From: an uncultured Bacteroidales bacterium
GTDB taxonomy: Bacteria; Bacteroidota; Bacteroidia; Bacteroidales; CAZSJF01
Length of the DNA stretch: 32,383 bases
Direction: 5' to 3'
NCBI GenBank assembly: GCA_964606705.1
Contig: CAZSJF010000002.1
Span: forward strand, 1-32,383
The position numbers and the translations under genes were made by a program. This document shows positions 1,028-29,112 of this stretch, piece by piece; position 1 is the first letter of the stretch; each line of letters begins with the position of its first letter. The notes under the pieces are model-generated. The model was not told the DNA's origin, made no database searches, and saw nothing but the letters and a program-made list of their open reading frames with translations.

Positions 1028-1065
1028 GATTATAGTTTTTTTGGTTACTAATCAATCCTTTGGAG

Positions 1066-1249: not shown

Positions 1250-1268
1250 TACTATAAAAATTTTTATT

Positions 1269-11341: not shown

Positions 11342-11400
11342 TATAAGAATTTTTTTAAATGGCAATAAAATTTAATTAACAACCAAAAAATAAAAAAATT

Positions 11401-12780: not shown

Positions 12781-12805
12781 ATAAACCATAAACATAACTC
12801 ATAAA

Positions 12806-12973: not shown

Positions 12974-12992
12974 CCTGAAAAATGAAAAATTT

Positions 12993-13925
12993 ATGAAAAA
13001 AATAGTTTTACTTTTTATAATATTTTTTGTATTGATTTTACAAAATCAGGCTCAGACAGTAACCGACATTGACGGCAATGTTTATAACACAGTAACCATT
13101 GGCACACAGACATGGATGGCTGAAAACCTGAAAGTAACACATTATCGCAACGGGGATTCCATACCATACGTAACAGACAGCCTTGGCTGGATGAATATTT
13201 TATTTGACACTGGTGCATATTGTTACTACAATTGTGATACGAATTTAAGAGCTGTTTATGGTAATATATATAATCCGTATTCTATTATAGACAGCCGCCA
13301 TTTATGCCCTGAAGGATGGCATGTTCCCACTGAAGCAGAATGGCAGACGCTATCTGATTTTCTCGGAGGACAATATGTTGCAGGCGGCAAGATAAAGGAG
13401 GTCGACACGACACACTGGAAGAGCCCCAACACAGGCGCAACAAATGAAAGTGGTTTTACCGGTTTGCCAGGGGGATGTAAATCGGGGTGGTATATGGGTA
13501 TGGGTGACATAGGCGAATGGGTAACATTTGCCTCTGAAGATACAACATTCGGAATTGTAACAATATATAATTCCTATGCATGGTTTTCTATAATGATGGG
13601 AACCCCTTGGTGGCCTGTAAATGAATATAATGGCAACTCCGTTCGTTGTATATGTGATTCAACTGTGATACAGATTCATAAAATTAATAATAATGAAGGC
13701 ATGCATATTTATCCGAATCCTGCAAAGGATAAAATAACTATTAATTATGCTGGAAGAGAAGATATGAATATGTTTATTTACAATATTGTTGGAGAATGTG
13801 TATTAAAAAGAGAACTAAATAATACCACAAATGAAATTGACATCCGTTCTTTGTCTGAAGGGATGTATATAATTAAAATTGCAGGCGCGCAAGGGACAAT
13901 GCAGTCAAAATTAATTAAAGAGTAA
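12993..13925 (+). CDS. Fibrobacter succinogenes major paralogous (FISUMP) domain protein with T9SS CTD
   Basis: VTDIDGNVYNTVTIGTQTWMAENLKVTHYRNG and GWHVPTEAEW are hallmark motifs of that domain. The CTD is HIYPNPAKDKITINY. Confidence 0.8.
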   Translation: MKKIVLLFIIFFVLILQNQAQTVTDIDGNVYNTVTIGTQTWMAENLKVTHYRNGDSIPYVTDSLGWMNILFDTGAYCYYNCDTNLRAVYGNIYNPYSIIDSRHLCPEGWHVPTEAEWQTLSDFLGGQYVAGGKIKEVDTTHWKSPNTGATNESGFTGLPGGCKSGWYMGMGDIGEWVTFASEDTTFGIVTIYNSYAWFSIMMGTPWWPVNEYNGNSVRCICDSTVIQIHKINNNEGMHIYPNPAKDKITINYAGREDMNMFIYNIVGECVLKRELNNTTNEIDIRSLSEGMYIIKIAGAQGTMQSKLIKE

Positions 13926-13968
13926 TAAGTTTTTTATTAAATTCGCTTTCTGATAAACAATTTTGTAT

Positions 13969-14880
13969 ATGTCAATAAAAACAAGCAATCTTACCAAAAT
14001 ATATGGTACGCAGAAAGCGCTGGATAATGTTTCTTTTCATGTGAATTCAGGCGAAATAGTCGGGTTGGTGGGTCCTAACGGCGCCGGAAAGTCAACAATA
14101 ATGAAGATAATATGCTGCTTTATCCCTCAGAGTTCCGGTGATGCTTCGGTTTGCGGGTATGATGTCATGGAACAGTCGCTTGAGGTAAGGAAAAAAGTTG
14201 GCTACCTGCCTGAAAACAACCCTCTTTACCTTGATATGTATGTCAGGGAATACCTTTCATTTGTTGCTGATTTATACAAGTTGGGAAAGAAAAGCAAAAG
14301 CAGGGTTGATGAAATGATCAGTATTGTCGGGCTTGAACCTGAACAGAAGAAAAAAATAGGAGCATTATCAAAAGGCTACAGGCAAAGGGTTGGCCTTGCA
14401 CAGGCATTGATACATGAACCTGAAGTGCTTGTGCTTGATGAGCCTACCTCCGGGCTTGATCCCAACCAGATAGTTGAAATAAGAAATCTTATAAGCAGGC
14501 TCGGAAAAGAAAAGACCGTTTTGTTTTCAACCCATATAATGCAGGAAGTCGAGGCTATATGTGACAGGGTGATTATTATTAATAAAGGCAAAATCATCAC
14601 AGATGAATTATCAGAGGATCTGTATAAAAATACTTCTGCCAGTCAGATTATTATTGTTGAGTTTGACGCAGCCATTACGGAAGCCGCGCTGAAAGCTGTT
14701 AGCGGAATTGCAAAGGTAAAAAGGATGGAAGGAAATATTTACGAAGTGGAAGCGAAGTCTGATAAAGACATCAGGGCTGATATTTTTCAGTTTGCTGTTA
14801 ATAATAACCTGAAAGTCCTTTCCATGCAGAAGTCAGGACAAAGCCTTGAAGAAATTTTCCAAACCCTGACCAAGAAATGA
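13969..14880 (+). CDS. gldA: Gliding-motility-associated ABC transporter ATP-binding protein GldA
   Basis: It has Walker A GPNGAGKST, signature LSKGYRQR and Walker B LVLDEP. The N-terminal MSIKTSNLTKIYGTQKALDNVSF and LPENNPLYLDMYVREYL closely resemble GldA. The ATG at 13969 is preferred to the TTG at 13963. Confidence 0.8.
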   Translation: MSIKTSNLTKIYGTQKALDNVSFHVNSGEIVGLVGPNGAGKSTIMKIICCFIPQSSGDASVCGYDVMEQSLEVRKKVGYLPENNPLYLDMYVREYLSFVADLYKLGKKSKSRVDEMISIVGLEPEQKKKIGALSKGYRQRVGLAQALIHEPEVLVLDEPTSGLDPNQIVEIRNLISRLGKEKTVLFSTHIMQEVEAICDRVIIINKGKIITDELSEDLYKNTSASQIIIVEFDAAITEAALKAVSGIAKVKRMEGNIYEVEAKSDKDIRADIFQFAVNNNLKVLSMQKSGQSLEEIFQTLTKK

Positions 14881-14890: not shown

Positions 14891-16885
14891 TTATTTTGTA
14901 TTACCACAGTATTTGTCAATTTCTTTCTGCACCTGAGTTAGTCCAAGCGACAGGGCTTTTCTGAAATCCTCACATGCCTCTTCATTTTTATACCCGCCTT
15001 TGATCTTTGCCAGGCCCCGCATCCCATATGACAGAGGGAAAGAAGGATTTAGTTTTATAGATTTATCCAGATCTGTGACAGCAGTCATGAAATTCCCATT
15101 GTTAAATTCGGCAAAACCCCGGTATGCATAAGCATCTGCATAAAGACTGTCTGACTTTATTACCTTTGAAAAATTTTCAATAGCCTGATTGAAATCATAT
15201 AAATTATACAAAGCAAAACCTTTCTCAAAGTACAGTGTCGGATAATTGAATCCAAGCTCATCTGCCTTTTTCAGGTCTTCGATGGCTCCGCCGAAATCTC
15301 CGTTAAGGTTTTTGCAGTGGGCACGGTTAAACCATACAGTTTCCATGGAAGGGTCAAATTGTATGGCCCTGTTGAAATCTGTTATGGCTTCGTAACAATT
15401 TTCGAGTTTTTCTTTGATAAGCCCCCTGTTGTTAAAATAACTTGCCTCGACAGGCCCGAGAGAAATGGCTTTGTTGAGGTCCGACAAAGCTCTGTTGAGT
15501 TCGCCTGTCTGGAAATATACATATCCGCGGTTTGCATAAGCACGCGGTAAATGCGGATGTAATTTAATGGCTCTGTTAAAATCTTCTAACGCACCTTTTA
15601 TATCGCCGTCTTCTCTTTTTACATCACCGCGGCAGTTGAGTGCTGTATAAGCGTTAGGATTTTTTGACAGTATGTCGTTTAACAGGCTCATGCTTGTATT
15701 CCACACTTTTGCCCGCTCATGTGCATAAACTGCCTGAAATAAAAACAAAGGAATAAGTAAGTACAGAAATATTTTTAATTTAGGTTTGTTTGTTATAAGC
15801 CATTCTGCAAAATAACCGATTATGAAGAAAATACCGATGCCCGAAATGTATATATACCTGTCGGCAATGATATAATTTGATATGGGTATCCATTTTAGGA
15901 ATATGAAAATATTGACCAGGAAAAATAATAATCCGAAAGATATGTACTTATTCTTTGATATTTTACGGTAAAAGAAGTAAAAAAATGCCAGCAGGGAAGG
16001 CAATAACAGCCATAAATACCATGGGGCACCATTATCTGTAAATGAAGGGTAAGCGTAATAAGCAGTCAGGTTCACAGGTATCAGTGTTTTATAGATGTAT
16101 AACAACAGGATATATGGCGGATAGATAAAAACATCCGTATATGACAACCACAAACTGCTTTTGTCAACATATCCGGTTTTCTGCTGTGATAAAATAGCTA
16201 TTATTCCGAATATTACGGCAACTGCAAAAAAAGGCAGTTTAGCCGGCAGCATTTTTCTCTTAAATGCATTATGTCCGCGGAAATAATCTGTTATTATAAG
16301 GCATAAAGGCAAAAGCACTCCCTGTCCTTTGGAAAGGCAGGACAGAATGAAAAGAATGAACGAAGAAACAAAATATTTCTTTTTGCCTGTATCGGAATAA
16401 TTCAGGTACATAAGTAAGGACAGCAGGAAGAAAAAGGCAAATAACACATCCTTGCGCGCTGTTGCCCATGCAACTGCTTCAACATTCATAGGGTGTACGG
16501 CAAACATGATCATGCATATGCCGGCTATCAGCGTTTTTCCTGTCAGCTTGCGGATAAATAAAAATACAAGTACAGCATTTGCCATATGCAGAATAATATT
16601 ATGCAGATGAAAAAAATAAGGTTTTAACCCGAATATCTGGTAATCCACACCAAGTGATATTAATGTAAGAGGGTGGTAATGACCTTCAAAGGAACGTGTA
16701 AATATTTTATGAAGGCTGCTGATGCTGAAATGGCGTATTAATTTATTGGATATTATGTAAATGCTGTCGTCCCAGCTTACAAAATCATTCAACAAACAGG
16801 GATAATAGATGATCAGTATTAAAAAAACTGATGATGCCAGCCATATCCACTTTTTTTTCATAATGCTTTTTCCCGGGAAAAACAT
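14891..16885 (-). CDS. Polytopic membrane protein (GT-C/PMT-like N-terminal domain) fused to C-terminal TPR repeats
   Basis: The first 390 aa or so contain many hydrophobic helices. The C-terminal 270 aa hold repeated 34-aa TPR-like units (A..Y..RG......G....A..DF..AI.L.P). An alternative ATG lies at 16861. Confidence 0.7.
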   Translation of the reverse strand: MFFPGKSIMKKKWIWLASSVFLILIIYYPCLLNDFVSWDDSIYIISNKLIRHFSISSLHKIFTRSFEGHYHPLTLISLGVDYQIFGLKPYFFHLHNIILHMANAVLVFLFIRKLTGKTLIAGICMIMFAVHPMNVEAVAWATARKDVLFAFFFLLSLLMYLNYSDTGKKKYFVSSFILFILSCLSKGQGVLLPLCLIITDYFRGHNAFKRKMLPAKLPFFAVAVIFGIIAILSQQKTGYVDKSSLWLSYTDVFIYPPYILLLYIYKTLIPVNLTAYYAYPSFTDNGAPWYLWLLLPSLLAFFYFFYRKISKNKYISFGLLFFLVNIFIFLKWIPISNYIIADRYIYISGIGIFFIIGYFAEWLITNKPKLKIFLYLLIPLFLFQAVYAHERAKVWNTSMSLLNDILSKNPNAYTALNCRGDVKREDGDIKGALEDFNRAIKLHPHLPRAYANRGYVYFQTGELNRALSDLNKAISLGPVEASYFNNRGLIKEKLENCYEAITDFNRAIQFDPSMETVWFNRAHCKNLNGDFGGAIEDLKKADELGFNYPTLYFEKGFALYNLYDFNQAIENFSKVIKSDSLYADAYAYRGFAEFNNGNFMTAVTDLDKSIKLNPSFPLSYGMRGLAKIKGGYKNEEACEDFRKALSLGLTQVQKEIDKYCGNTK

Positions 16886-16992
16886 AAAATATAAGTTCCC
16901 TTAAAGGTGATTTTTGTGTTTTTTATCCAAAATTAAAACTTTAAAGATGTAAAAGTATATAATATGAAATTTATTTTATTTAAATAATTATG

Positions 16993-17000
16993 TAATTTTG
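16993..17000 (+). promoter_or_regulatory. Candidate -7 box (TAnnTTTG) for metK
   Basis: TAATTTTG lies 46 nt upstream of the ATG at 17046. Confidence 0.4.
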
Positions 17001-18991: not shown

Positions 18992-19471
18992 ATGAGAAAA
19001 ATATTTTTTGCTTCGCTTATTGTCGTCCTTGCTTCATGCGGACACAAGAAAATTTTTGAAAAACATCTTGATATTGAGAATTATTCATGGAACAGGTATA
19101 AGAAGTTTGAATATACAGTGCCTGTGAAAGAAAAGGACGTAAATTATGACATATATATAGCTGTAAGGCATATCACACAATATCCTTTTGCAAACCTTAT
19201 GGTTGGATTAAGCATTTATTACCCCGGTGGCGAGGAAAGGTATGATGAGTTTGACCTGATCCTGCGTGATAAAAGCGGGAAACTCATAGGCGACGGGACC
19301 GGTGATATATGGGATATTTCAATACCTGTTATTAAAAACATATCTTTTAAAGAAGCCGGCAATTACAAGTTTGAAATAGAGAACCTGATGCCCAAATTCG
19401 AAACCCCCGGTATAATGCAGATAGGGCTTATCGTTAAAAAAGCTGACAAAAAAACAACTCCCTCATCTTGA
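18992..19471 (+). CDS. gldH: Gliding motility lipoprotein GldH-like
   Basis: It has lipobox LASCG and is 159 aa long. Y.F.NL...L....P.G, L.L.D..G...G.G.G and G.Y.F.I.N.M......GI..IGL.V.K match my memory of the GldH family pattern. Confidence 0.65.
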   Translation: MRKIFFASLIVVLASCGHKKIFEKHLDIENYSWNRYKKFEYTVPVKEKDVNYDIYIAVRHITQYPFANLMVGLSIYYPGGEERYDEFDLILRDKSGKLIGDGTGDIWDISIPVIKNISFKEAGNYKFEIENLMPKFETPGIMQIGLIVKKADKKTTPSS

Positions 19472-21276
19472 ATTTGAACAAGCATTCTGAAAATTTGCAG
19501 GAAATTATTAAAACACTTCCGGATTCTCCGGGCGTCTACCAGTTTTTTGACAAGACTGCCAGAATGATATATGCAGGGAAAGCAAAAAGCATCAGGAAAA
19601 GGGTGCAGTCTTACTTCAGGGAGCCTTATGATAACAATAAGATAGAGGTACTCGTAAAACAAATTAAAGATATCAGGTGCATAATTGTCAGTAATGAATC
19701 CGAAGCCTTACTCCTTGAAAATAATCTTATAAAAGAGCATCAGCCGAAATACAACGTCAAACTGAAGGACGACAAGACATTTCCGTGGATATGTGTAACA
19801 AAAGAGGACTTTCCCAGAGTATTTTCCACACGCAGTATTGTGAGGAACGGTTCAAAATATTACGGACCTTTTGTCTCTTTGAAGTTTTTGCGTGCTTTAA
19901 CGGATCTGATACGGCAACTGTACCCTCTTAGAACCTGCCGCCTGGCCCTGACGGAAGAAAGTATTGCAGATAAAAAATATAAAAGATGCCTTGAGTTCCA
20001 CCTAGAAAATTGTAAAGCGCCCTGCGAAAACCTGCAGAGCAGGGAAGAATACAACAGCAACATAACAGAGATACAGCAGATACTGCGCGGAGATATAGGC
20101 AGTATCCTCCGGAAATTCAAAGATCTGATGTATAAGCATTCCGGGAAGCATGAATTTGAAAAAGCACAGGCGATCAAGGAAAAGATAGAGCTTCTGTCGG
20201 GTTATCAGAGCAAATCAGTTGTTGTAAATCCTGATATCACTGATGTTGATGTTTTTTCAATAGTTTCAGATGAAAAGTATGGATATGTGAATTACCTGAA
20301 GATACTGAATGGTGCAATCGTTCAGTCATACACAACAGAGCTGCAGAAGAAGCTTGATGAAAGTGATGAAGAACTTATTTCAATAGCAATAGCAGAATGC
20401 CGCCAAAGGTTTGAAAGCTGTGCAAAAGAGATTATTATTCCGTTTCAACTGGATATTGAAATACCGGATACAAATTTTATTGTTCCCCAGATAGGAGACA
20501 AAAAGAAACTTTTAAAATTGTCTGAAAATAACATTCAGTATTACAAAGCAAAAAAACAATTGCACAGCCCTGCTCCTGACAGAAGCGCCCGCATTCTCGA
20601 ACAGATGAAAAAAGACCTGCGGCTGAAAGAGATTCCTGTCCATATCGAATGTTTCGATGTTTCAAACATACAGGGAAAATTTGCCGTTGCTTCAATGGTT
20701 GTATTCAGGAATGCCAGGCCGCTGAAGAAGGAGTACAGGCATTACAACATCAAGACCGTTGAAGGTGCAAATGACTATGCATCCATTGAAGAAATAGTCT
20801 ATCGCCGCTATAAACGGCTTCTTGATGAAGAACAGCCGTTGCCACAACTTATTATTATTGACGGGGGAAAAGGACAGCTCAGCGCATCTGTTAAAAGTTT
20901 AAAGAAAACAGGCATGACAGGTAAAGCAGGTGTAATAGGCATTGCAAAAAAGCTGGAAGAGATATATTATCCGGGAGACCCTGTTCCACTCTACCTGAAT
21001 AAAAAATCAGAAACCCTCAGGCTTATCCAGCATATCAGGAATGAAGCCCACCGCTTCGGGATAACACATCACAGGAATAAAAGAGAGAAAGAAACTATCA
21101 AAACCGAACTGACAGAAATAAAAGGCATAGGAAAAGCTGCTGCGCAAAAGCTTCTTAAAAAATACGGCTCTGTAAATGCTGTTAAGGCTTTAAAGATATC
21201 AGAACTTGAAGATACTATCGGTAAAGCAAAAGCAAAGATTGTCTTTGAATATTTTAGGGCCTTAGGTAAGTTGTAA
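19468..21276 (+). CDS. uvrC: Excinuclease ABC subunit C
   Basis: It has a GIY-YIG N-terminus (PGVYQFFD...IYAGKAKSIRKRV), a UVR domain, an RNase H-like endonuclease domain and a C-terminal (HhH)2 (LTEIKGIGKAAAQKLLKKYGS). There is no in-frame ATG before GIY-YIG. The TTG at 19468 overlaps the gldH stop. Confidence 0.9.
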   Translation: MNLNKHSENLQEIIKTLPDSPGVYQFFDKTARMIYAGKAKSIRKRVQSYFREPYDNNKIEVLVKQIKDIRCIIVSNESEALLLENNLIKEHQPKYNVKLKDDKTFPWICVTKEDFPRVFSTRSIVRNGSKYYGPFVSLKFLRALTDLIRQLYPLRTCRLALTEESIADKKYKRCLEFHLENCKAPCENLQSREEYNSNITEIQQILRGDIGSILRKFKDLMYKHSGKHEFEKAQAIKEKIELLSGYQSKSVVVNPDITDVDVFSIVSDEKYGYVNYLKILNGAIVQSYTTELQKKLDESDEELISIAIAECRQRFESCAKEIIIPFQLDIEIPDTNFIVPQIGDKKKLLKLSENNIQYYKAKKQLHSPAPDRSARILEQMKKDLRLKEIPVHIECFDVSNIQGKFAVASMVVFRNARPLKKEYRHYNIKTVEGANDYASIEEIVYRRYKRLLDEEQPLPQLIIIDGGKGQLSASVKSLKKTGMTGKAGVIGIAKKLEEIYYPGDPVPLYLNKKSETLRLIQHIRNEAHRFGITHHRNKREKETIKTELTEIKGIGKAAAQKLLKKYGSVNAVKALKISELEDTIGKAKAKIVFEYFRALGKL

Positions 21277-21546
21277 CGTTCCGCGTGTTGCTTCCAGTTG
21301 CCGATTTCAAGACTCTTTACTGTCTGTATCACCCTTGTGTTGACGTGTTTTAATTTTTTTATTTTAAGCGTGGGAGAAAATTTTTGAAATTCTTTTCTGG
21401 GGTTGACTTTGCAAGCTCTTTGACAAAGCTTCGATTTTAGGGTTGGCTCGTGTAGCTTGGGCAATGTGCTTGCAAATAGCATTGGCTAAAATACAAATTG
21501 TTAATAACTTTTTTGGTGAGAGACTTTAGAAATATTTTTTATTGAT

Positions 21547-21568
21547 TAATTTTGTCAAATATTGACAA
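21547..21568 (+). promoter_or_regulatory. -7 box TAATTTTG overlapping the palindrome TTGTCAA-ATA-TTGACAA, a putative operator of the HTH-MTase operon
   Basis: The -7 motif is at 21547-21554. The perfect 7-bp inverted repeat arms are at 21552-21558 and 21562-21568, 10 nt upstream of the ATG at 21578. Confidence 0.5.
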
Positions 21569-21577
21569 GTCGTTAAA

Positions 21578-21898
21578 ATGCAAAATTCAAAATCTGATTT
21601 AGGACAGTTTTTCAGAAAACTCCGCAAAGAGAAAGATGAAACTTTACATCAGGTGTCAAAGGGAACTGACATTGATTCTCCGATGTTAAGTAAGATTGAG
21701 AGAAGTGATAGAATGCCAACCCTTGAACAACTCAAAAGGTTATGCAAGTATTTCAAAGTTGCAGAAGCGGATTTGAAAGTGATGCACACGGCAGAAAAAA
21801 TAATTAAGGAATACGGTGTCAATGAAACAACCTACGAAGCTGTTAGAATGGTTGAGGAACAAATAACTCCTTTCCTTAAAAAAATCAGAGCGAAATGA
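21578..21898 (+). CDS. XRE-family helix-turn-helix transcriptional regulator
   Basis: LGQFFRKLRKEKDETLHQVSKGTDIDSPMLSKIERSDRMPTLEQLKRLCKYFKV is a classic HTH_3 pattern. Its stop overlaps the next start (ATGA at 21895-21898). Confidence 0.8.
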   Translation: MQNSKSDLGQFFRKLRKEKDETLHQVSKGTDIDSPMLSKIERSDRMPTLEQLKRLCKYFKVAEADLKVMHTAEKIIKEYGVNETTYEAVRMVEEQITPFLKKIRAK

Positions 21899-23649
21899 GT
21901 CCTGTAGAATCTTATACAAAGGAATATCGAAAAGTGAATGGGGTATTTTACACTCCCTCGTTTCTTGCTGAATATCTATCAAAAAAAATTGTCAAATATT
22001 TAGGCAGTAGAAATATTGCAACAATTATTGATCCTGCTTGCGGTGATAGTATTTTGCTACGAAGTTTTGCAAATGAGTTATTGGAAAATTCTTATAAAAA
22101 TCTTCCAAAGATTTTTGGAGTAGATAAAGACATAAATGCAATTATAAGTTCAACTTCAAAATTTGCTGACAAACCTTTGAAAAGGATTGAAACAAGATTT
22201 AATCATACGGATGGGTTATTTCCTGTCAAAGGGAAAAAATCAATTGAAGGTTGGATTGAATTGCGAAAGGAATTAAAAAGCAAAAGCGGTTTTGATATCG
22301 CTATTAGTAATCCTCCTTGGGGTGCAGAATTGAATGGTTATGACCCTATTATTTTGAATTTCAATTTTGCTTTAGCAAAAGGACAGTTTGATATTTTTGA
22401 TTTATTTGTTGAAGTTATTTTGAATAACCTCAATGAAAATGGGATTTACGGATTAATTCTTCCCGATTCTGTTTTCAGTCAGGAACAAGCTAGATTCAGA
22501 TGCTTACTTTCAAAGAATACAACCATTCATTTAATCGCACGATTAGGAGAAAAAATATTTCCTGAAATAAACAGGGCTTGTGTCATTATAGTTGGTGAAA
22601 AAGCAAAAGCAAAAAGCAATCATCAAGTTGATTGTTTTCGTCTGTCTTCAAATTACAAGAAACAGGTAATTGCAAATGAATTATCGTTGGAAGAAGTTGA
22701 AAAGGAATTGATACACAAAGTTCCTCAAAGCAGATTTTTTGAAAATGACAATTATATTTTTGATATTGACTTAAAAACGAATGAGCAACAAACTTTTGAT
22801 AAAATTCAAAACAATAGTTTGTCTGTCAAACAATATGTAAAGAATACAAGAGGTGCTGAAATTTCAAAGAAGGGTGTTGTGTGTCAATGTCCTAAATGTC
22901 AACACTGGATGCCTTACCCAAAATCAAAGCAACCAGCTTGCAACAACTGTAATACACCATTCAATATCGAAACTGTCACTAAAGAAAAAATCATTCTCAA
23001 TCACAATGGAGTTGGAAATTTAAAATTGAAAGTTGGCGAAGATTTATTTCGGTTTACTTCGGTTTCTAAAAGTTGGATTAACACCTTGAAAGAAGGAATC
23101 AACTACAAAGATTTAAGTATTTACAACGGTGATAAAATTCTTGTTAGAAAAACTGGAGTTGGAATTACTGCAAGTATGGATTATGAAAATGCAGTTACTA
23201 ATCAGGTTGTTTACATTTTGAAATTGAAACCTGGCGTTGAAAAAAACTTGTCATTGGAATTTGTATTGGCAGTTCTTAATTCAAGGGCAATGACTTACTA
23301 CCTAATAAAAAAGTTTGGAGAGAATGAATGGAAAAGTCATCCATACTTAACACAAACAATGCTTGTAAATTTGCCATTCCCGAAAATTGATTTCAATTCT
23401 TCTGATGCAAAGAAGTTGATTAACCGTGTTACAAAAATTGTGAGAAACGAAGTTTCTAAATCAAAAGAAAAAAACATTGCAAAAGCGAATGACCTTTTCA
23501 TTGAAAGAGTCGTTGCACATTTTTTTAAAATGAATCAAACAGATTATAAAGCAATTTTTGAAACGCTTAATTCTTCGGAACAACTAATTCCTATTAGGCG
23601 ATTGTTGAATTGCAACACCAAAGAGATTTTTACAGTAAATGGGTTATAG
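21895..23649 (+). CDS. N6-adenine DNA methyltransferase, Eco57I/TaqI-like (gamma-class) with TaqI_C-type target-recognition domain carrying a Cys4 ribbon insertion
   Basis: GVFYTPSFLAEYL is present. Motif I is IIDPACGDSILL and motif IV is ISNPPWG (22309-22320). Further elements are FDIFDLFVE...GIYGLILPDSVF and the C-terminal ILVRKTG...NQVVYIL...LAVLNSRAMTYYL. The ribbon is CQCPKC...CNNC (22882-22950). Confidence 0.85.
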   Translation: MSPVESYTKEYRKVNGVFYTPSFLAEYLSKKIVKYLGSRNIATIIDPACGDSILLRSFANELLENSYKNLPKIFGVDKDINAIISSTSKFADKPLKRIETRFNHTDGLFPVKGKKSIEGWIELRKELKSKSGFDIAISNPPWGAELNGYDPIILNFNFALAKGQFDIFDLFVEVILNNLNENGIYGLILPDSVFSQEQARFRCLLSKNTTIHLIARLGEKIFPEINRACVIIVGEKAKAKSNHQVDCFRLSSNYKKQVIANELSLEEVEKELIHKVPQSRFFENDNYIFDIDLKTNEQQTFDKIQNNSLSVKQYVKNTRGAEISKKGVVCQCPKCQHWMPYPKSKQPACNNCNTPFNIETVTKEKIILNHNGVGNLKLKVGEDLFRFTSVSKSWINTLKEGINYKDLSIYNGDKILVRKTGVGITASMDYENAVTNQVVYILKLKPGVEKNLSLEFVLAVLNSRAMTYYLIKKFGENEWKSHPYLTQTMLVNLPFPKIDFNSSDAKKLINRVTKIVRNEVSKSKEKNIAKANDLFIERVVAHFFKMNQTDYKAIFETLNSSEQLIPIRRLLNCNTKEIFTVNGL

Positions 23650-24721
23650 ATACATCGGCTCTAAGGACAAACTTTCTGATATTATCATTTCGGAAATTAA
23701 GTCCACAAAAAAAGGAGCAAAACATATTATTGATTTGATGGCTGGCACTGGACTTTTTTCATTGGCACTTCGTGAAAAAGGGTTTCAAGTATCGGCAGTT
23801 GATGTTATGACATATTCATATCATCATTTGAATGTGCATTTGTTTTTGAATGAAGCTCCTTCATTCAAAGGAATGGAAGTGATTAATGATTTTGAAAAAT
23901 ACCAAACTCAAAATTTATTTGGTGGAAGTAATTACGAAAAGGTTTTGAATTACTTGAACAATTTAAATCCAGTTAAAGGATATTTCTACAATGAATTTAG
24001 TCCAGAAGGAGAACCAACCAACACATTAAGACCACGAAAATATTTCACTTCTAAGAATGCTGCAAAGATTGATGCAATCAGAAATGAAATTAAAAATCTG
24101 CGAAAGAAAAATATCATAACTGAATATGAGCATTCTCTTTTATTGCACGATTTGATAATGGCTGCAAATGATATTGCAAACATTGCAGGAACTTACGGTC
24201 ATTACTTGTCAAAGTTTGTAAAGAGAGCCAAAGACCCGATTTTACTTTATGCTTCATCATTTTCAAATGGTGGAAATGTAAAGGGTCACAAAGTTTTCAG
24301 AGGTTATGCAGAAGATATTGCAAGTAAGTTGTCGGGCGATATGTGCTACATTGACCCACCGTATATCAAGCGACAATATGCAGCAAACTATCACATACTT
24401 GAAACGCTTGCAAGAGAAGATGAACCCGAAGCAATTGGAGAAAGTGGTTTAAGACCTTGGAGAGACCAGTATTCAAACTTTTGTTCCAAGGTAAAAATCA
24501 GAAGTTCATTTGATGAAATTCTAACTAAAATAAATTGCGATGACTTTCTGATTAGTTACAGTGAAGATGGATTGTTGCCGATTGATGATTTAATTTCTTT
24601 CTTGTCGAGTTACGGCAAAGTTGTCAAGAAAGATATTAAGTATAAACGATTCAAAAGTCGGATTGATAGTAAGAAAGAAGCAACACTGAATGAATACCTC
24701 ATTCACTTGCATCGCAATTAA
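23639..24721 (+). CDS. D12-class (Dam-like) N6-adenine DNA methyltransferase
   Basis: It has N-terminal RYIGSK, the AdoMet motif LMAGTGLFSL and catalytic DPPY (24353-24364, in CYIDPPYIKRQY). It overlaps the upstream MTase by 11 nt. Confidence 0.8.
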   Translation: MGYRYIGSKDKLSDIIISEIKSTKKGAKHIIDLMAGTGLFSLALREKGFQVSAVDVMTYSYHHLNVHLFLNEAPSFKGMEVINDFEKYQTQNLFGGSNYEKVLNYLNNLNPVKGYFYNEFSPEGEPTNTLRPRKYFTSKNAAKIDAIRNEIKNLRKKNIITEYEHSLLLHDLIMAANDIANIAGTYGHYLSKFVKRAKDPILLYASSFSNGGNVKGHKVFRGYAEDIASKLSGDMCYIDPPYIKRQYAANYHILETLAREDEPEAIGESGLRPWRDQYSNFCSKVKIRSSFDEILTKINCDDFLISYSEDGLLPIDDLISFLSSYGKVVKKDIKYKRFKSRIDSKKEATLNEYLIHLHRN

Positions 24722-25767
24722 TCAGTCAATGTTTGTTCTACTGTTGTAATATGATTGAAATGCCATGTGATTGTGTAAGCAATTCCGTTAATAGTAATGG
24801 GAAGTTGTCTGTCAGTAATATTATTAAGATTGATTTCAGAAACTTCTGCGTAATGCAACATTCTATGAATTAATGGGCTTACTACAATAGCATTTGCATA
24901 TGCATCAGAACCGTTTTCTCCTAAAGGAATTAAGTGATGAACTTCTGAATAAAATTCTCCGTCCCTTTTTATGAAAGTGAATTGCTCCCCTGTAATTTGA
25001 CATCGTCCAGCATAAAGATCTTTTAAATTCCTCACCAACCGATTATTTCTTTGACGAATTCGCATCACTCGGTTTACAATTTCTGGTTGCGTATTCGTAT
25101 CAATTAATTCTTGTAATCGTGGAGAAGTATCTTCTAACTCTAATTCTGTCTCAACATCTTGTTCTGTGGGAATATCATTAGCAACTGTAGCTGCATTAAA
25201 ATAAAATGGGCACACTTGATTCGTTGTTTCAATAAAAAGTTTTCCCCTGAATTTTAAATAACCTGCGGATTCTTGAGTAAACATTTTGCTTAACGCAACA
25301 TTGCCTATCCAATTTGCAGGAATTTGATTTTGAAGAAACCAACCTGCCCAATACTCTCCGTCAGTTGTTTTAACAATATAAACTACAAGATTCTCTGCAT
25401 CTGGATTGTAGTCATTTGGAAAACCGTTGTCAGGATGCCAAGAAGGAACTCTGTTTGATGCTCTGCTATGAATCTTCTGTGATGCAATACTTACAGAAGC
25501 TGCTCGTCTTTGGTAAATTCTAAGTGTTATTAGTGAAACAATTCCCAAGCTATTAATTCTGAAATCCCATTGCGGTCTGTCGCCAGCACCAACACCAGTG
25601 TTGACACCTAAGAAGTCAAACCATCTTTGAAGTTGAATATCAGCAATTGGAAAATCAATGTATGACTGTCCGCCTCCGCCTTCTTCTTCTCCTCCAACTT
25701 TGTTGATGTGTCGGAAATCGGCATAGGTCATTCTTCTGAACACTAAACTGTCAACTCTTTTTTCCAT
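24718..25767 (-). CDS. HNH-family nuclease (McrA-like HNH core, aa 252-306) with an unrecognised N-terminal domain; putative restriction endonuclease
   Basis: The HNH core is YAGRCQITGEQF...EVHHLIPLGENGSDAYANAIVVSPLIHRMLHY. The N-terminal 190 aa or so match no family I recognise. An acidic linker (PTEQDVETELELEDTS) follows. The start overlaps the stop of the upstream HTH gene (TAATG at 25765-25769). Confidence 0.75.
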   Translation of the reverse strand: MEKRVDSLVFRRMTYADFRHINKVGGEEEGGGGQSYIDFPIADIQLQRWFDFLGVNTGVGAGDRPQWDFRINSLGIVSLITLRIYQRRAASVSIASQKIHSRASNRVPSWHPDNGFPNDYNPDAENLVVYIVKTTDGEYWAGWFLQNQIPANWIGNVALSKMFTQESAGYLKFRGKLFIETTNQVCPFYFNAATVANDIPTEQDVETELELEDTSPRLQELIDTNTQPEIVNRVMRIRQRNNRLVRNLKDLYAGRCQITGEQFTFIKRDGEFYSEVHHLIPLGENGSDAYANAIVVSPLIHRMLHYAEVSEINLNNITDRQLPITINGIAYTITWHFNHITTVEQTLTD

Positions 25768-25976
25768 TAGAAAAGCTTTTTAATGTCAATATCAAGTGCT
25801 TTGGCAATTTTCTCAATGTTGATAAGAGTTATATTTTTTTCAGCTCTTTCAATCATGCCAATATATGTCCGATGTAATTCAGCTCTAAAGGATAATTCTT
25901 CCTGAGAAAGACCTTTTTTCTTTCTTAAAATCCTTACTTTTTCACCAAATCTAATGAGTATTTTTTTGTTATCCAT
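25767..25976 (-). CDS. Small XRE-family HTH protein, controller (C) protein-like
   Basis: The 69-aa product from the ATG at 25976 reads MDNKKILIRFGEKVRILRKKKGLSQEELSFRAELHRTYIGMIERAEKNITLINIEKIAKAL. The track start at 25997 is a TTG lying inside the predicted promoter. The gene sits directly upstream of the nuclease and is translationally coupled to it. Confidence 0.75.
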   Translation of the reverse strand: MDNKKILIRFGEKVRILRKKKGLSQEELSFRAELHRTYIGMIERAEKNITLINIEKIAKALDIDIKKLF

Positions 25977-25994
25977 TGAGCAAATATCAAAGTA

Positions 25995-26034
25995 CAAAGC
26001 TATTTATAGTATGCAAAACACACAACATACTATA
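25995..26034 (-). promoter_or_regulatory. -7 box TAGCTTTG plus adjacent perfect palindrome TATAGTATG-N12-CATACTATA (putative C-box operator)
   Basis: On the minus strand TAGCTTTG occupies 26002-25995. The 9-bp inverted repeat arms are at 26005-26013 and 26026-26034, immediately upstream. Confidence 0.5.
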
Positions 26035-26287
26035 GTTAGCATTTTAGCGTTGGCAAAATTGCACTCTTTGGCAAGTTTTGGTTTGTGGATCGGTTCGTAT
26101 GGTTGGCAGTCATTCTGATTTGTCTTTCTTTTCTTTCTTTTTAAGCTTGTTGCCAACTTATTTATAGGCGCACCTTTATTACACCTATCTAGCAAATATA
26201 ATATTTATTAAGATAACCTATAGTGTGCTTTCAGGATAAAATAAAAAAATAAAAGCCACAGGATGAACAACGAGTTGCTTTTACATG

Positions 26288-26295
26288 TACTTTTG
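26288..26295 (+). promoter_or_regulatory. Candidate -7 box (TAnnTTTG)
   Basis: TACTTTTG lies 33 nt upstream of the ATG at 26328. Confidence 0.35.
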
Positions 26296-26327
26296 CAGGG
26301 CCTGAGTTTAAAAATTACAATAATTAT

Positions 26328-26765
26328 ATGAAGAAGAAAGTAACAGAACCCAACAATGTTTATACTGCAAGGCTTGTAAAAAGCGAGGACCTGAATCATC
26401 ACAAAACATTATTTGCGGGAAGAATAGCTGAATGGTTTGTTGAAGCCGGCTTTCTGGCTGCTGCAAAACTGTTTGATCCTAAAAGAATTCTTTGCCTTAA
26501 TATACATGGCATGCATTTCACCAAACCTGTACTGGCAGGACAGATACTGGATTTCACTTCAAAAATAGTCTATACGGGAAAAAGCAGTCTAATAGCATAT
26601 ATACAGGTAAAAAAAGATGATGACAATGATCCTTTTGTGAGGGGCTTTATCACCTTTATTTGTGTGGATGAAAACACCAGGCCTGTGCTTCATCATATTG
26701 AGATCAAGCCGAAAACTGAAGAGGATATAACCCTGTACGATAAGGCAAAGTGTTTAAAAAAGTAG
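26328..26765 (+). CDS. Hotdog-fold acyl-CoA thioesterase
   Basis: RLVKSEDLNHHKTLFAGRIAEWFVEAGFLAA plus the size (145 aa) resemble YciA/acyl-CoA hydrolase-type 4HBT proteins. Confidence 0.75.
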   Translation: MKKKVTEPNNVYTARLVKSEDLNHHKTLFAGRIAEWFVEAGFLAAAKLFDPKRILCLNIHGMHFTKPVLAGQILDFTSKIVYTGKSSLIAYIQVKKDDDNDPFVRGFITFICVDENTRPVLHHIEIKPKTEEDITLYDKAKCLKK

Positions 26766-27325: not shown

Positions 27326-28375
27326 ATGAAAATAAATTTTATAAAAAACCACCCTTTATTTGTCAGAATATCCCTGCATGTTTTATTCTGGATAGTTTAT
27401 TTTATCATTAACACTTTGCTGTACGTTGTGCCTACGGAAAATTCCTTTATGGAGCTTTTGCCCCAGCTGTTAATGTTCCTGCCTGTTGACATGTCTGCCA
27501 CTTATTTCACCCTTTATTTCCTGATGACTAAATTTCTTTTCAAAAAAAGATACGTCTCATTCTCCGCACTTTTTATCATATCCGTGGTCTTTTTTATAAC
27601 TATTGCCCAGGTAATCCGTTACTACATATATGTTCCCCATTATCATCCTGAATATGTCGGGAAGTGGAAGTTTTACCAGTTTGATTATTTTTATATCCTT
27701 GTGGCAACTTATGCTGTTGTGATATTTGCGGCGGCAATCAAGTTGACAAAATACTGGATTAAATATCAGCAGGAACAGGCAGACCTTAAAAGTCAGAATA
27801 TACAGAGCGAACTCGCCCTGCTGAAATCACAGATCAATCCGCACTTTTTATTCAACACGCTGAATAACATCGACTCAATGATACTGAGCGACCGGGACAA
27901 AGCCTCTGATTCAATAATAAAACTCTCCGAAATAATGAGGTATATGCTTTATGAAGCAAATGCTGAAAAAGTACCCCTTGAAAAGGAAATTGAATATATC
28001 AGGAATTTCATAAATCTTCAGTTGCTAAGAGTTTCAGATCAGAATTTTATAAAATTAACAGTAAACGGAAATACTGAAAATAAGTTCATTACCCCGATGT
28101 TATTTATCCCGTTTGTCGAGAATGCGTTCAAGCATGGAAATAAAAATGTCAGAATGCCTGCAGTGTCTGTAAACGTTGACATATCCGACGAAATTCTTAT
28201 TTTTGAAGTTGTGAATTATATAAATAAAGATGCTGTAAGTAAAGACAAAACAGGAGGAATAGGGCTTTATAACGTACGAAAAAGGCTTGATTATATATAT
28301 CGTGAAAAATATGAGCTTTATATTAAAGACACAGATAATATTTTTAAGGTAAAATTAATACTTAAAGAGTTATGA
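27326..28375 (+). CDS. LytS/YehU-type sensor histidine kinase
   Basis: It has an N-terminal multi-TM region, then QINPHFLFNTLNNI (His_kinase domain) and a C-terminal HATPase-like segment (FVENAFKHG...GGIGLYNVRKRL). Confidence 0.85.
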   Translation: MKINFIKNHPLFVRISLHVLFWIVYFIINTLLYVVPTENSFMELLPQLLMFLPVDMSATYFTLYFLMTKFLFKKRYVSFSALFIISVVFFITIAQVIRYYIYVPHYHPEYVGKWKFYQFDYFYILVATYAVVIFAAAIKLTKYWIKYQQEQADLKSQNIQSELALLKSQINPHFLFNTLNNIDSMILSDRDKASDSIIKLSEIMRYMLYEANAEKVPLEKEIEYIRNFINLQLLRVSDQNFIKLTVNGNTENKFITPMLFIPFVENAFKHGNKNVRMPAVSVNVDISDEILIFEVVNYINKDAVSKDKTGGIGLYNVRKRLDYIYREKYELYIKDTDNIFKVKLILKEL

Positions 28376-29112
28376 AAATAAGATGCATTGCAATAGACGA
28401 CGAACCTCTTGCATTGAACAAGATGAAAAACTATATAGGGAAAGTCCCTTTTCTTGACCTTGTTGCAACATTCAACAACGGCATAGATGCAATAAGTTTT
28501 ATAAAAGACAATAAGGTGGATCTCATGTTCCTCGATGTACAGATGGATGAACTGACAGGCATACAGATGCTTGAAACACTAAAGGAAAGGCCGAAAGTGA
28601 TACTGACAACAGCCTATGACTCCTATGCTTTAAAAGGCTATGAACTTGATGTATGCGACTACCTTCTTAAACCTATTTCTTTTGAAAGATTCCTTCAGTC
28701 TGTAAACAAAATCTTTGATCTGCTTAGTAATAAAAATCATGAATCTGTAAAGTTGTCAAGTGAAACCGGACAGGAAAACAAAAAGGAAAAATTTGTTTTT
28801 ATTAAAACAGAATACCGGATGCAAAAGGTTAATTTTGACGATATACTCTACATAGAAGGTATGAAAGATTATCTTCTTATACGCACCATTACTGAAAAAA
28901 TTATGACTTTGCAGAATTTCAGGAAGATGGAAGAGCTTTTACCGCCCGATAATTTTATAAGGACACATAAGTCTTACATGGTAGCAATAAACAAGATAGA
29001 AAGCATAGAAAGAAACCGTATAAAAATTAAAGACAAGCTTATTCCCATAGGAGACACATACAAAAAAGCATTTTCTGATTTTTTTGAAAAGAATAACCTT
29101 AAACTGCAATAG
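28372..29112 (+). CDS. LytR/AlgR-family response regulator (REC + LytTR)
   Basis: The REC domain reads IRCIAIDDEP...DLMFLDVQMDELTG...KP. The LytTR domain reads ILYIEGMKDYLLIRT...IRTHKSYMVAINKI. An ATGA overlap joins it to the kinase gene. Confidence 0.9.
   Translation: MKIRCIAIDDEPLALNKMKNYIGKVPFLDLVATFNNGIDAISFIKDNKVDLMFLDVQMDELTGIQMLETLKERPKVILTTAYDSYALKGYELDVCDYLLKPISFERFLQSVNKIFDLLSNKNHESVKLSSETGQENKKEKFVFIKTEYRMQKVNFDDILYIEGMKDYLLIRTITEKIMTLQNFRKMEELLPPDNFIRTHKSYMVAINKIESIERNRIKIKDKLIPIGDTYKKAFSDFFEKNNLKLQ

What the first reader, a model, noticed from the sequence alone, without database searches (positions are those of the whole stretch)
21277..26327. Lower-GC island between uvrC and a thioesterase gene: two adenine MTases and an HNH nuclease, each operon with its own HTH controller
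About 4.4 kb of coding sequence is flanked by 300-nt and 330-nt non-coding stretches. My spot GC counts on 60-nt samples gave 35% (22021-22080), 38% (24001-24060) and 28% (25201-25260) inside the island. The flanks gave 45% (20041-20100, uvrC) and 43% (26401-26460). These are small samples only, but they are consistent with horizontal acquisition. On the plus strand, an XRE-HTH, an Eco57I/TaqI-like gamma-class m6A MTase (NPPW) and a D12-class m6A MTase (DPPY) are all translationally coupled. Converging on the minus strand are a 69-aa C-protein-like HTH and a 349-aa HNH nuclease. Two separate adenine MTases with one nuclease is the classic layout for an asymmetric (Type IIS-like) recognition site needing one MTase per strand. 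I infer a Type II/IIS restriction-modification (R-M) system with an HNH-type endonuclease and dual transcriptional control. No integrase, transposase or tRNA marks the borders. The combination (Cys4-ribbon MTase, D12 MTase, McrA-like HNH with an unknown N-domain, two controllers) is not a system I can name.
Basis: partly seen in the sequence, partly recalled or inferred. Interest (0 to 1): 0.7.

Follow-up and report, generated by a model that had tools for sequence, protein, structure and literature searches.

The report
Restriction-modification cassette with B3-HNH nuclease
This is a mobile five-gene bacterial restriction-modification (anti-phage) cassette whose DNA-cutting enzyme joins a plant-type 'B3' DNA-reading domain to an HNH cutting domain, a combination I found no description of; otherwise it follows familiar rules.

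Summary
Five genes lie at 21578-25997: an HTH regulator, a gamma-class m6A methyltransferase (NPPW, Cys4 ribbon, TaqI_C) and a D12 m6A methyltransferase (DPPY) on the plus strand. They converge on a C-protein gene and a 349-aa HNH nuclease gene on the minus strand. GC is 33.5% against 37.6% for the rest of the window, and GC3 is 0.24-0.35 against 0.36-0.41.

The "unknown" N-terminal domain of the nuclease models confidently (pLDDT 87). Its best fold match is the B3-like DNA-recognition domain of the Type IIS enzyme BfiI.

In 16 of 16 related loci with readable flanks, the nuclease converges on the same two methyltransferases. The loci span Bacteroidota, Proteobacteria and small plasmids. Neighbours include integrase, resolvase, IS and conjugative-transposon genes.

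The same N-domain also occurs fused to a McrB-like GTPase. In 6 of 6 loci read, that fusion sits just downstream of the same MTase pair; in the four where the next gene is readable, a McrC/LlaJI-type nuclease follows. This is the LlaJI layout, which restricts unmethylated asymmetric sites.

The recognition site, cleavage position and regulator functions remain inferred. I rate it a new variant of a known kind, of moderate interest.

The parts
21546..21568 (+). Candidate promoter and operator of the MTase operon. TAATTTTG (21546-21553) fits the Bacteroidota -7 consensus TAnnTTTG. It overlaps the perfect palindrome TTGTCA-AATAT-TGACAA (21552-21568), which ends 10 nt before the HTH1 start codon.
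   Evidence: The sequence is. The palindrome occurs once in the window, but 17 of 100 shuffles give at least one match, so position and conservation carry the argument. TTGYCA-N5-TGRCAAGT, overlapped by TAnnTTTG, is conserved upstream of HTH1 orthologues in L010 and L011; L001 keeps the palindrome but its -7 box does not fit the consensus. DNA similarity to L001 begins at 21538. The function is inferred; the promoter consensus is from my own knowledge.
21578..21898 (+). HTH1: a 106-aa XRE-family HTH protein, translationally coupled to the first MTase. It is the putative autoregulator of the MTase operon.
   Evidence: HTH_3 E 1.3e-9. PADLOC HTH_VI 2.7e-11, but only weak Control_protein hits. 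Orthologues (49-75% identity) or other HTH_3 proteins hold the same position in L001, L003, L004, L005, L010, L011, L103, L105 and L106.
21895..23649 (+). M1: a 584-aa gamma-class N6-adenine DNA methyltransferase. It has an NPPW catalytic motif, a Cys4 zinc ribbon (C332, C335, C349, C352) and a TaqI_C specificity domain.
   Evidence: N6_Mtase 9.8e-19, Eco57I 9.5e-15, TaqI_C 4.5e-12. PADLOC MTase_II 1.3e-27. NPPW and the four cysteines are invariant in 12 orthologues.
23639..24721 (+). M2: a 360-aa D12-class N6-adenine DNA methyltransferase with a DPPY motif.
   Evidence: MethyltransfD12 1.8e-31. PADLOC MTase_II 2.5e-66, and a match to the first half of a 646-position MTase_II profile. DPPY is invariant, with 69% mean column identity over 12 orthologues, including those of LlaJI-type loci.
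25183..25767 (-). Nuclease residues 1-195: the B3-like (DNA-binding pseudobarrel) domain, the predicted sequence reader.
   Evidence: No Pfam or PDB sequence match. The AF2 domain model has pLDDT 86.7 and pTM 0.84. Foldseek gives BfiI 2c1l_A (E 9.9e-5, prob 1.00, TMq 0.45) and the BfiI-C/DNA complex 3zi5_A (E 4.5e-4, TMt 0.53), then ARF, UbaLAI and LEC2 B3 domains. G31, Q34, Y36, D38, R87, Q97, F116, P117 and A141 are invariant across the HNH- and McrB-fused forms.
24718..25182 (-). Nuclease residues 196-349: a variable, low-confidence linker (about 196-227), a long helix (228-251), the HNH catalytic core (about 252-310) and a conserved C-terminal beta-hairpin plus helix.
   Evidence: EcoKMcrA HNH 6ghc E 3.1e-9 over residues 225-309, and Foldseek prob 1.00. 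PADLOC mREase_IV 1.6e-10 over 226-309. H277, H278, N292, H301 and H305 are invariant in 53 homologues. pLDDT is 58-63 at residues 200-230. Linker length varies among homologues: +17 aa and about +48 aa.
25767..25976 (-). C protein: a 69-aa controller HTH (76 aa if the TTG at 25997 is used). Its stop codon overlaps the nuclease ATG (TAATG).
   Evidence: HTH_3 7.3e-15. PADLOC Control_protein models 2.4e-24, 4.8e-20 and 3.3e-17. An HTH gene holds the same position in L002, L003, L004, L010, L105 and L106. It is absent in L001, L009, L011, L102 and L103.
25995..26036 (-). Candidate C-box and promoter. On the minus strand: ACTATAGTATG (26036-26026), a 12-nt spacer, CATACTATA (26013-26005), then TAGCTTTG (26002-25995), which fits TAnnTTTG. 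The C-gene ATG lies 19 nt further downstream.
   Evidence: The sequence is and the inverted repeat is I1. ACTATAGT occurs once in the window, although 30 of 100 shuffles give at least one match. Classical C-box-like repeats sit upstream of the controller genes in L010 (ACTTATAGTCCGTAGACTTATA) and L005 (GACTATAGTCCGT). The function is inferred.

Best explanation
The island is a self-contained, horizontally mobile Type II restriction-modification cassette, most likely of the Type IIS kind.

Proposed mechanism:
- The nuclease is a two-module enzyme. Its N-terminal B3-like pseudobarrel reads a short DNA sequence, probably asymmetric, when the adenines in it are unmethylated.
- A flexible linker of variable length delivers the C-terminal HNH (beta-beta-alpha-metal) domain to cut nearby.
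- The two N6-adenine methyltransferases, gamma-class M1 and D12-class M2, each protect the host by methylating an adenine in that site, most probably one strand each.
- The C protein binds the inverted repeat upstream of its own gene. It delays and then limits expression of the translationally coupled nuclease.
- HTH1 binds the TTGTCA-N5-TGACAA palindrome that overlaps the MTase-operon promoter and autoregulates HTH1-M1-M2.

Shown here: gene content, catalytic motifs, the fold of both nuclease domains, strict co-occurrence of nuclease and MTase pair, mobility, and conserved operator-like repeats.

Inferred: restriction of unmethylated DNA, site asymmetry, one MTase per strand, cleavage outside the site, and the regulatory logic.
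For: 1. Domain assignments and invariant catalytic motifs: NPPW, DPPY, and H277/H278/N292/H301/H305.

2. N-domain fold. The confident domain model (pLDDT 86.7, pTM 0.84) has as its best PDB matches the DNA-recognition domain of the Type IIS enzyme BfiI, followed by other B3 domains. The full-length model independently gave ARF1 and UbaLAI B3 domains plus the McrA HNH domain.

3. Co-occurrence. In 16 of 16 loci with readable flanks, the nuclease converges on D12 plus gamma MTase genes. The hosts are Chitinophagaceae, Flavobacterium, Aquaticitalea, Elizabethkingia, Dysgonomonas, Fibrella, Pseudoalteromonas, Marivita, a Paracoccus plasmid and metagenomic contigs.

4. LlaJI-type sister systems. 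The same N-domain (34-44% identity) is fused to a McrB-like AAA_5 GTPase in about 33 of the 75 longer representative clusters. In 6 of 6 such loci it lies directly downstream of the same MTase pair (D12 61-63% and gamma 41% identical to the window's). A McrC/RE_LlaJI protein follows in the four loci where that gene is readable. This is the LlaJI layout. In LlaJI the McrB-like R1 subunit is the sole specificity determinant for an unmethylated asymmetric site protected by two MTases (PMC1459862). R1 binds DNA through a B3 domain (PMC7680126, PMC12707154).

5. Regulation. The C-protein match is strong, its gene overlaps the nuclease gene, and C-box-like repeats are present. The HTH1 operator is conserved in three other loci.

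6. Mobility. The composition is shifted. The flanks differ in every genome, with integrase, relaxase/T4SS, resolvase, IS66 and IS110 neighbours. DNA similarity to the closest cassette is confined to 21538-25769.
Against: - No biochemical or methylome data exist for any member that I could find. The recognition sequence, its asymmetry and the cleavage position are unknown.
- The B3 assignment rests on predicted structure, with moderate TM-scores (0.45-0.53) and no sequence-level match to Pfam or PDB.
- B3-like domains in EcoRII and UbaLAI read the pseudo-palindrome CCWGG, so the fold alone does not prove an asymmetric site.
- Two MTases can also serve a symmetric site, as in DpnII-type systems (from my own knowledge).
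- The structural zinc site of McrA-type HNH domains is not kept: in the alignment, McrA's CENC...CPNC corresponds to CQIT...SPLI. The effect on activity is unknown.
- The operator motifs are not statistically exceptional within the window alone.
- Neither HTH gene is universal in the family.
- An empty-site comparison to prove insertion could not be made.
Confidence: 0.75

Rival explanations
1. It is the same R-M system, but it recognises a symmetric or pseudo-symmetric site (Type IIP/IIE-like). The two MTases would then be redundant or specialised, for example for double- versus single-stranded or hemimethylated DNA as in DpnII/MboI-type systems, rather than one per strand.
For: B3-like domains of EcoRII and UbaLAI read CCWGG as monomers (PMC2770665, PMC5766183; the UbaLAI B3 domain is among the fold hits). 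Two-MTase systems for palindromic GATC are known (from my own knowledge). Nothing here determines the site.
Against: The best fold match is the Type IIS enzyme BfiI. The sister systems have the LlaJI layout, whose prototype reads an asymmetric site with two MTases (PMC1459862). The two MTases belong to different classes with unrelated specificity domains, yet they are kept together in all 22 of 22 loci read, which fits two different strand sequences.
Confidence: 0.15
2. The HNH protein is a modification-dependent (Type IV, McrA-like) nuclease that merely sits beside an unrelated pair of MTases. This is what the automatic annotation '5-methylcytosine-specific restriction protein A' implies.
For: The HNH core is most similar to EcoKMcrA, and the only PADLOC hit is mREase_IV. 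JGI names for homologues say McrA. The N-domain is also fused to McrB-like GTPases, and most McrBC systems are modification-dependent.
Against: The similarity to McrA covers only the HNH core. The N-domain does not match NEco, SRA or PUA readers; it matches B3 sequence readers. Linkage to the same two MTases is strict (16 of 16 and 6 of 6 loci), whereas PUA-HNH Type IV enzymes are typically not near MTases (PMC6765204). A C protein is coupled to the nuclease. The McrB-fused relatives have the LlaJI organisation, which restricts unmethylated DNA (PMC1459862).
Confidence: 0.05
3. The cassette acts mainly as a selfish addiction module or as an epigenetic regulator, and restriction of phage is weak or lost in this particular copy.
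For: The cassette is mobile and sits next to IS, resolvase and conjugative genes. C-controlled R-M systems are known to cause post-segregational killing (from my own knowledge). One relative (L001) has a split M1 gene.
Against: All five ORFs in the window are intact and their catalytic residues are conserved. Addiction and defence are not mutually exclusive and use the same mechanism.
Confidence: 0.05

Closest known systems
BfiI / BmrI (Type IIS, ACTGGG 5/4)
   Same: A two-module enzyme in which a B3-like pseudobarrel reads an asymmetric site and a separate nuclease domain cuts outside it. BfiI-C is the best structural match to the window's N-domain (PMC3973309, PMC4081073).
   Different: In BfiI the B3 domain is C-terminal and the nuclease is a metal-independent PLD domain. 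Here the B3-like domain is N-terminal and the nuclease is HNH. There is no detectable sequence similarity.
LlaJI (Lactococcus pNP40; H. pylori LlaJI) R-M system
   Same: Two MTases together with a restriction protein whose N-terminal B3 domain is the specificity determinant for an unmethylated asymmetric site (PMC1459862, PMC7680126, PMC12707154). Sister loci of the window's family have exactly this layout, with the same N-domain and the same MTase pair.
   Different: LlaJI uses two m5C MTases and cuts through a McrB-like GTPase plus a McrC-like nuclease. The window has two m6A MTases and a single-chain HNH nuclease with no NTPase. The genes converge instead of forming one operon.
Type IIS HNH enzymes (MnlI, HpyAV, MboII, Hin4II, HphI, Eco31I)
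   Same: Asymmetric-site enzymes with a separate HNH (beta-beta-alpha-metal) cleavage module, accompanied by two MTases or a fused pair (PMC4081073, PMC2441816).
   Different: As far as I know their recognition domains have not been described as B3-like. I could not compare sequences because REBASE is not available here, so homology to one of them is not excluded.
EcoKMcrA (Type IV)
   Same: Closest solved HNH core (E 3e-9 over about 85 residues), with the same N-reader/C-HNH order.
   Different: McrA has the NEco 5mC-reading domain and a CCCH zinc site, and no cognate MTase. The window's protein has a B3-like domain, lacks three of the four zinc ligands, and is always linked to two MTases.
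C-protein-controlled Type II systems (PvuII, AhdI, Esp1396I, etc.)
   Same: A small HTH controller immediately upstream of, and overlapping, the R gene, with inverted-repeat C-boxes in its promoter.
   Different: The window's repeat (9-nt arms, 12-nt spacer) differs from the classical GACT...AGTC boxes. A second, unrelated XRE-type HTH heads the MTase operon.

Membership tests
Type II restriction-modification system | DNA methyltransferase(s) with intact catalytic motifs | tested here: met
   NPPW (gamma class) and DPPY (D12 class) are present and invariant in 12 orthologues. Pfam and PADLOC hits support both.
Type II restriction-modification system | A separate endonuclease gene stably linked to the MTase gene(s) | tested here: met
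   16 of 16 HNH-type loci carry both MTases converging on the nuclease.
Type II restriction-modification system | Cleavage of unmethylated DNA at or near a defined sequence, blocked by the cognate methylation | not testable with these tools
   This needs biochemistry or methylome data.
Type IIS subtype | Separate recognition and cleavage domains in one polypeptide | tested here: met
   The AF2 models show a B3-like domain (residues 1-195), a variable low-pLDDT linker and an HNH domain.
Type IIS subtype | Asymmetric recognition sequence with cleavage outside it | not testable with these tools
   This is inferred only from the two dissimilar MTases, the BfiI-like reader and the LlaJI-type sister systems.
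B3 / DNA-binding pseudobarrel superfamily | Seven-stranded pseudobarrel fold matching known B3 domains | tested here: met
   Foldseek: BfiI 2c1l prob 1.00, E 9.9e-5, TMq 0.45; 3zi5 TMt 0.53; ARF, UbaLAI and LEC2 B3 domains follow. The TM-scores are moderate and the structure is predicted.
B3 / DNA-binding pseudobarrel superfamily | Sequence-profile match to a B3 family | tested here: not met
   A 36-sequence profile has no PDB hit, and none of the 36 members scanned singly has a Pfam hit. Membership therefore rests on the fold alone.
HNH (beta-beta-alpha-metal) nucleases | Conserved His-Asn-His catalytic residues | tested here: met
   H277/H278, N292, H301 and H305 are invariant in 53 homologues. 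They align with the EcoKMcrA HNH domain.
HNH (beta-beta-alpha-metal) nucleases | Structural CCCH/CCCC zinc site, typical of the McrA-type subgroup and not required of all HNH domains | tested here: not met
   Only C256 is kept. McrA's CxxC...CxxC positions read CQIT...SPLI (alignment).
Type IV McrA-like modification-dependent nuclease | Modified-base reader domain (NEco, SRA or PUA) | tested here: not met
   The N-domain fold search returns B3 domains, not NEco, SRA or PUA domains. 6ghc aligns over the HNH part only.
Type IV McrA-like modification-dependent nuclease | No cognate MTase for its own target; usually solitary | tested here: not met
   It is always adjacent to the same two MTases (16 of 16 loci).
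LlaJI-type (McrBC-like) R-M system | McrB-like GTPase R1 and McrC-like R2 subunits | tested here: not met
   There is no AAA+ or McrC gene in the window. They are present only in sister loci L013-L015 and L099-L101.
C-protein-controlled R-M system | Controller-family HTH protein immediately upstream of, and co-transcribed with, the R gene | tested here: met
   PADLOC Control_protein 2.4e-24. The stop and start codons overlap as TAATG.
C-protein-controlled R-M system | C-box operator in the C/R promoter, bound by the C protein | tested here: inconclusive
   An inverted repeat lies at 26005-26036, next to a promoter-like TAGCTTTG. Related repeats occur in L010 and L005. Binding was not tested, and the motif is not statistically exceptional.

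The most novel reading that the evidence does not exclude
The nuclease may found a biochemically uncharacterised restriction-enzyme family: the first in which a B3-like pseudobarrel reader is fused to an HNH cutter. It has no Pfam model and is annotated only as 'HNH endonuclease' or 'McrA'.

In addition, the reader domain together with its two-MTase partner may behave as a portable specificity cassette. That cassette has been coupled to two quite different cutting machines: a single-chain HNH domain, and a GTP-driven McrBC/LlaJI motor nuclease. If so, this is a natural experiment in swapping restriction effectors around a fixed recognition and protection unit, and a possible source of a new Type IIS specificity.
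Probability: 0.45. Interest if true: 0.55.

Novelty: new variant of a known kind. Interest (0 to 1): 0.45.

Why it matters
Restriction enzymes with separable reading and cutting modules are the raw material for engineered nucleases and for new cloning enzymes. A compact 349-aa B3-HNH enzyme with its own pair of MTases would add a domain combination I did not find described.

The family is common: over 500 close homologues and 223 clusters at 50% identity. It is spread across phyla and onto plasmids, yet it is mis-annotated as McrA. That label would lead defence-system surveys to count it as Type IV.

The pairing of one reader domain and one MTase pair with either an HNH domain or a McrBC-type motor gives a clean comparative system. 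It could show how restriction systems exchange effector modules while keeping self/non-self discrimination intact.

Tried and rejected
1. Empty-site test for insertion. I fetched 80 metagenome loci encoding thioesterase relatives. The best is only 69% identical, none has uvrC within 8 kb, and there is no synteny with the window. The test was uninformative. Mobility is argued from the differing flanks of the cassette elsewhere.

2. Sequence-level identification of the N-domain. A phmmer/hmmsearch profile against PDB, and each of the 36 members singly against Pfam, gave nothing. Only structure prediction helped.

3. Named relatives of the MTases among solved structures. There was only a weak hit for M1 (2f8l, E 3e-4) and none for M2.

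4. NCBIfam gave no specific family for any of the five proteins.

5. Flanking direct repeats or att-like sites. Only weak repeats (71% identity or less) link the two borders, so this was rejected. There is no tRNA and no Rfam family.

6. Sigma-70 promoter and terminator scan. The counts are not above shuffled expectation. Bacteroidota-type promoter motifs were read by eye instead.

7. Recognition sequence. It cannot be derived here: REBASE and methylome data are not available, and 32 kb is too little for site-avoidance statistics.

8. Independent fusion events within the HNH class were considered. This was rejected because distant members (37-44% identity) align over their full length.

9. The Hosford & Chappie 2018 paper could not be opened. 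Its result is cited through PMC7680126 and PMC12707154.

Full report
**Observation**

- Plus strand: a 106-aa protein (21578-21898), a 584-aa protein (21895-23649) and a 360-aa protein (23639-24721), each overlapping the next.
- Minus strand: a small ORF (25767-25997 from TTG, or 69 aa from the ATG at 25976) whose stop overlaps the start of a 349-aa ORF (24718-25767).
- The two operons converge and overlap by 4 nt.
- The flanks are uvrC (19468-21276) and a 4HBT thioesterase (26328-26765).

Pfam, PADLOC and NCBIfam scans give:

| Protein | Main hits |
|---|---|
| Both small proteins | HTH_3 |
| Minus-strand small protein | PADLOC Control_protein, E 2.4e-24 |
| 584-aa protein | N6_Mtase, Eco57I, TaqI_C |
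| 360-aa protein | MethyltransfD12, E 1.8e-31 |
| 349-aa protein | No Pfam family; residues 225-309 match the HNH domain of EcoKMcrA (PDB 6ghc, E 3e-9) and PADLOC mREase_IV |

Composition:

- The island is 33.5% GC against 37.6% for the rest of the window. It is the lowest 5-kb window in the sequence.
- GC3 is 0.24-0.35 for the island genes against 0.36-0.41 for the neighbours.
It is weak relative to the downstream flank (35.4%).
- No tRNA or Rfam element is present.

**What the nuclease is**

A search of 5.8 billion proteins found 512 homologues. The best 120 are all about 348 aa and 59-93% identical. Their only names are 'HNH endonuclease', 'hypothetical' or the JGI label '5-methylcytosine-specific restriction protein A'.

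In an alignment of 53 of them, H277, H278, N292, H301 and H305 are invariant. Three of the four zinc ligands of McrA are replaced (alignment).

The N-terminal 220 residues have no Pfam or PDB sequence match, even as a 36-sequence profile.

Structure prediction resolved the N-domain:

- The full-length model (pLDDT 82) hit B3 domains (ARF1, UbaLAI) and the McrA HNH domain.
- A domain-only model (pLDDT 86.7, pTM 0.84) hit BfiI (2c1l, E 9.9e-5, prob 1.00, TMq 0.45). It also hit the BfiI C-terminal recognition domain bound to DNA (3zi5, TMt 0.53), followed by ARF, UbaLAI and LEC2 B3 domains.

The protein is therefore a B3-like 'DNA-binding pseudobarrel' reader joined to an HNH cutter. The join is a linker that is poorly conserved, low in pLDDT and variable in length among homologues. 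B3-like domains are the sequence readers of EcoRII, BfiI, UbaLAI and NgoAVII (PMC3973309, PMC4267654, PMC5766183).

**Context in other genomes**

They do not.

- In every locus with a readable downstream flank (16 of 16), the nuclease converges on a D12 MTase followed by an N6_Mtase/Eco57I/TaqI_C MTase.
- These loci are L001-L006, L009-L011, L096-L098, L102, L103, L105 and L106.
- The hosts span Bacteroidota (Chitinophagaceae, Flavobacterium, Aquaticitalea, Elizabethkingia, Dysgonomonas, Fibrella), Gamma- and Alphaproteobacteria (Pseudoalteromonas, Marivita) and 16-19 kb Rhodobacterales plasmids.
- The flanks differ everywhere. They include a phage-type integrase (L009), a conjugative-transposon relaxase/T4SS (L010), resolvases (L011, L102), IS66 (L105), IS110 (L106) and a GmrSD fragment (L001).
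- Nucleotide similarity between the window and the closest cassette (L001, 78%) is confined to 21538-25769.

The cassette is therefore mobile, although no mobility gene lies in the window itself.

**A second effector on the same reader and MTases**

An exhaustive HMMER search with the N-domain alone found 223 clusters.

- Among the 75 longer hits, about 42 are 325-450 aa (reader plus HNH) and about 33 are 500-711 aa.
- All six such loci that I could read have the order gamma MTase, D12 MTase, reader-McrB. In the four where the following gene is readable, a McrC (PF10117) or RE_LlaJI (PF09563) protein comes next, all on one strand.
- Their D12 MTase is 61-63% identical to the window's, and the gamma MTase about 41%.
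- The Cys4 ribbon, NPPW and DPPY are invariant across both system types.

This is the organisation of LlaJI. In LlaJI the McrB-like R1 is the sole specificity subunit for the unmethylated asymmetric site GACGC/GCGTC, which is protected by two MTases (PMC1459862). The R1 N-terminal domain is a B3 domain that binds DNA site-specifically (PMC7680126; PMC12707154).

The window's family thus shares its reader and its protection unit with bona fide 'restrict-unmethylated-DNA' systems. This is strong indirect evidence that the HNH enzyme does the same.

**Regulation**

Upstream of the C gene lies an inverted repeat, ACTATAGTATG-N12-CATACTATA (26036-26005 on the minus strand). It is followed by TAGCTTTG, which fits the Bacteroidota -7 promoter consensus TAnnTTTG (the consensus is from my own knowledge). 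Controller genes in L010 and L005 are preceded by classical C-box-like repeats.

Upstream of HTH1, the perfect palindrome TTGTCA-AATAT-TGACAA (21552-21568) overlaps TAATTTTG. TTGYCA-N5-TGRCAAGT overlapped by TAnnTTTG recurs before the HTH1 orthologues of L010 and L011; L001 keeps the palindrome but its -7 box does not fit the consensus.

Within the window alone neither motif is statistically exceptional. The case rests on position and conservation.

The full five-gene, two-HTH layout recurs in L003, L004, L010, L105 and L106. Other loci keep only one HTH gene or none. The regulators are therefore accessory modules.

**Interpretation**

The best-supported reading (confidence about 0.75) is a mobile Type II, probably Type IIS-like, R-M cassette.

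- The B3-like domain reads an unmethylated, probably asymmetric site.
- The tethered HNH domain cuts nearby.
- M1 and M2 methylate an adenine, probably one on each strand.
- C times nuclease expression, and HTH1 autoregulates the MTase operon.

The main rival is the same system acting on a symmetric or pseudo-symmetric site (0.15). Type IV PUA-HNH enzymes are characteristically not next to MTases (PMC6765204).

**Novelty**

Every component class is known:

- HNH Type II and IIS enzymes (PMC4081073).
- B3-like readers in PD-(D/E)XK, PLD and McrB contexts.
- C proteins.
- Two-MTase Type IIS systems.

I found no description of a B3-like reader fused to HNH (literature searches), and the domain has no Pfam model. 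I could not query REBASE, so a characterised or methylome-assigned relative may exist.

I therefore rate it a new variant of a known kind. Interest is moderate (0.45). The most interesting aspect is the apparent exchange of HNH and McrBC-type effectors around one reader-plus-MTase unit.

Noticed in passing
L001:10119-11877 (Chitinophagaceae MAG, closest cassette): The gamma-MTase orthologue is split into two overlapping ORFs (10798-11877 and 10119-10892). tblastn shows a frame change near residue 345. It is either a pseudogene or an assembly error. A GmrSD_C (Type IV) fragment lies just upstream of the nuclease (7159-7626), which suggests a defence island.
   Followed up: partly
L007:8001-8998 and L008:2563-3560 (Acidobacteriaceae MAGs): The nuclease homologue matches in two different frames (residues 3-144 and 141-295) and runs into the contig end. 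It may be a frameshifted copy, and its MTase context is unreadable.
   Followed up: no
window 21408-21476: A 23-nt imperfect inverted repeat (83% complementary, 23-nt loop) lies in the non-coding stretch between uvrC and the cassette. It is outside the region shared with L001. It may be a uvrC terminator or an insertion scar.
   Followed up: no
window 27326-29112: Two overlapping ORFs lie downstream of the thioesterase: 349 aa (multi-pass membrane N-terminus) and 246 aa. By eye they look like a LytS-type histidine kinase and a LytTR response regulator. No domain search was run on them. This region is also relatively AT-rich (about 34% GC), which weakens the island's compositional contrast on that side.
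   Followed up: no
window 1001-1500, 8501-9000, 12501-13000, 13501-14000, 16501-17000: Other short low-GC patches (28-31% in 500-nt windows) occur elsewhere in the window. A low 500-nt GC value alone is therefore not specific to the R-M island.
   Followed up: no
L011:5960-6535 and L102:4362-4901: In a Fibrella chromosome and on a Paracoccus plasmid, a small serine recombinase/resolvase gene sits directly upstream of the nuclease gene. This hints that the cassette can travel with a resolvase.
   Followed up: partly
window 23639-24721 (D12 MTase): The D12 MTase aligns over its whole length with the first half (positions 2-339) of a 646-position PADLOC MTase_II profile. That profile may represent fused two-domain Type IIS MTases of the FokI/LlaI kind; this is my recollection and was not verified.
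   Followed up: no
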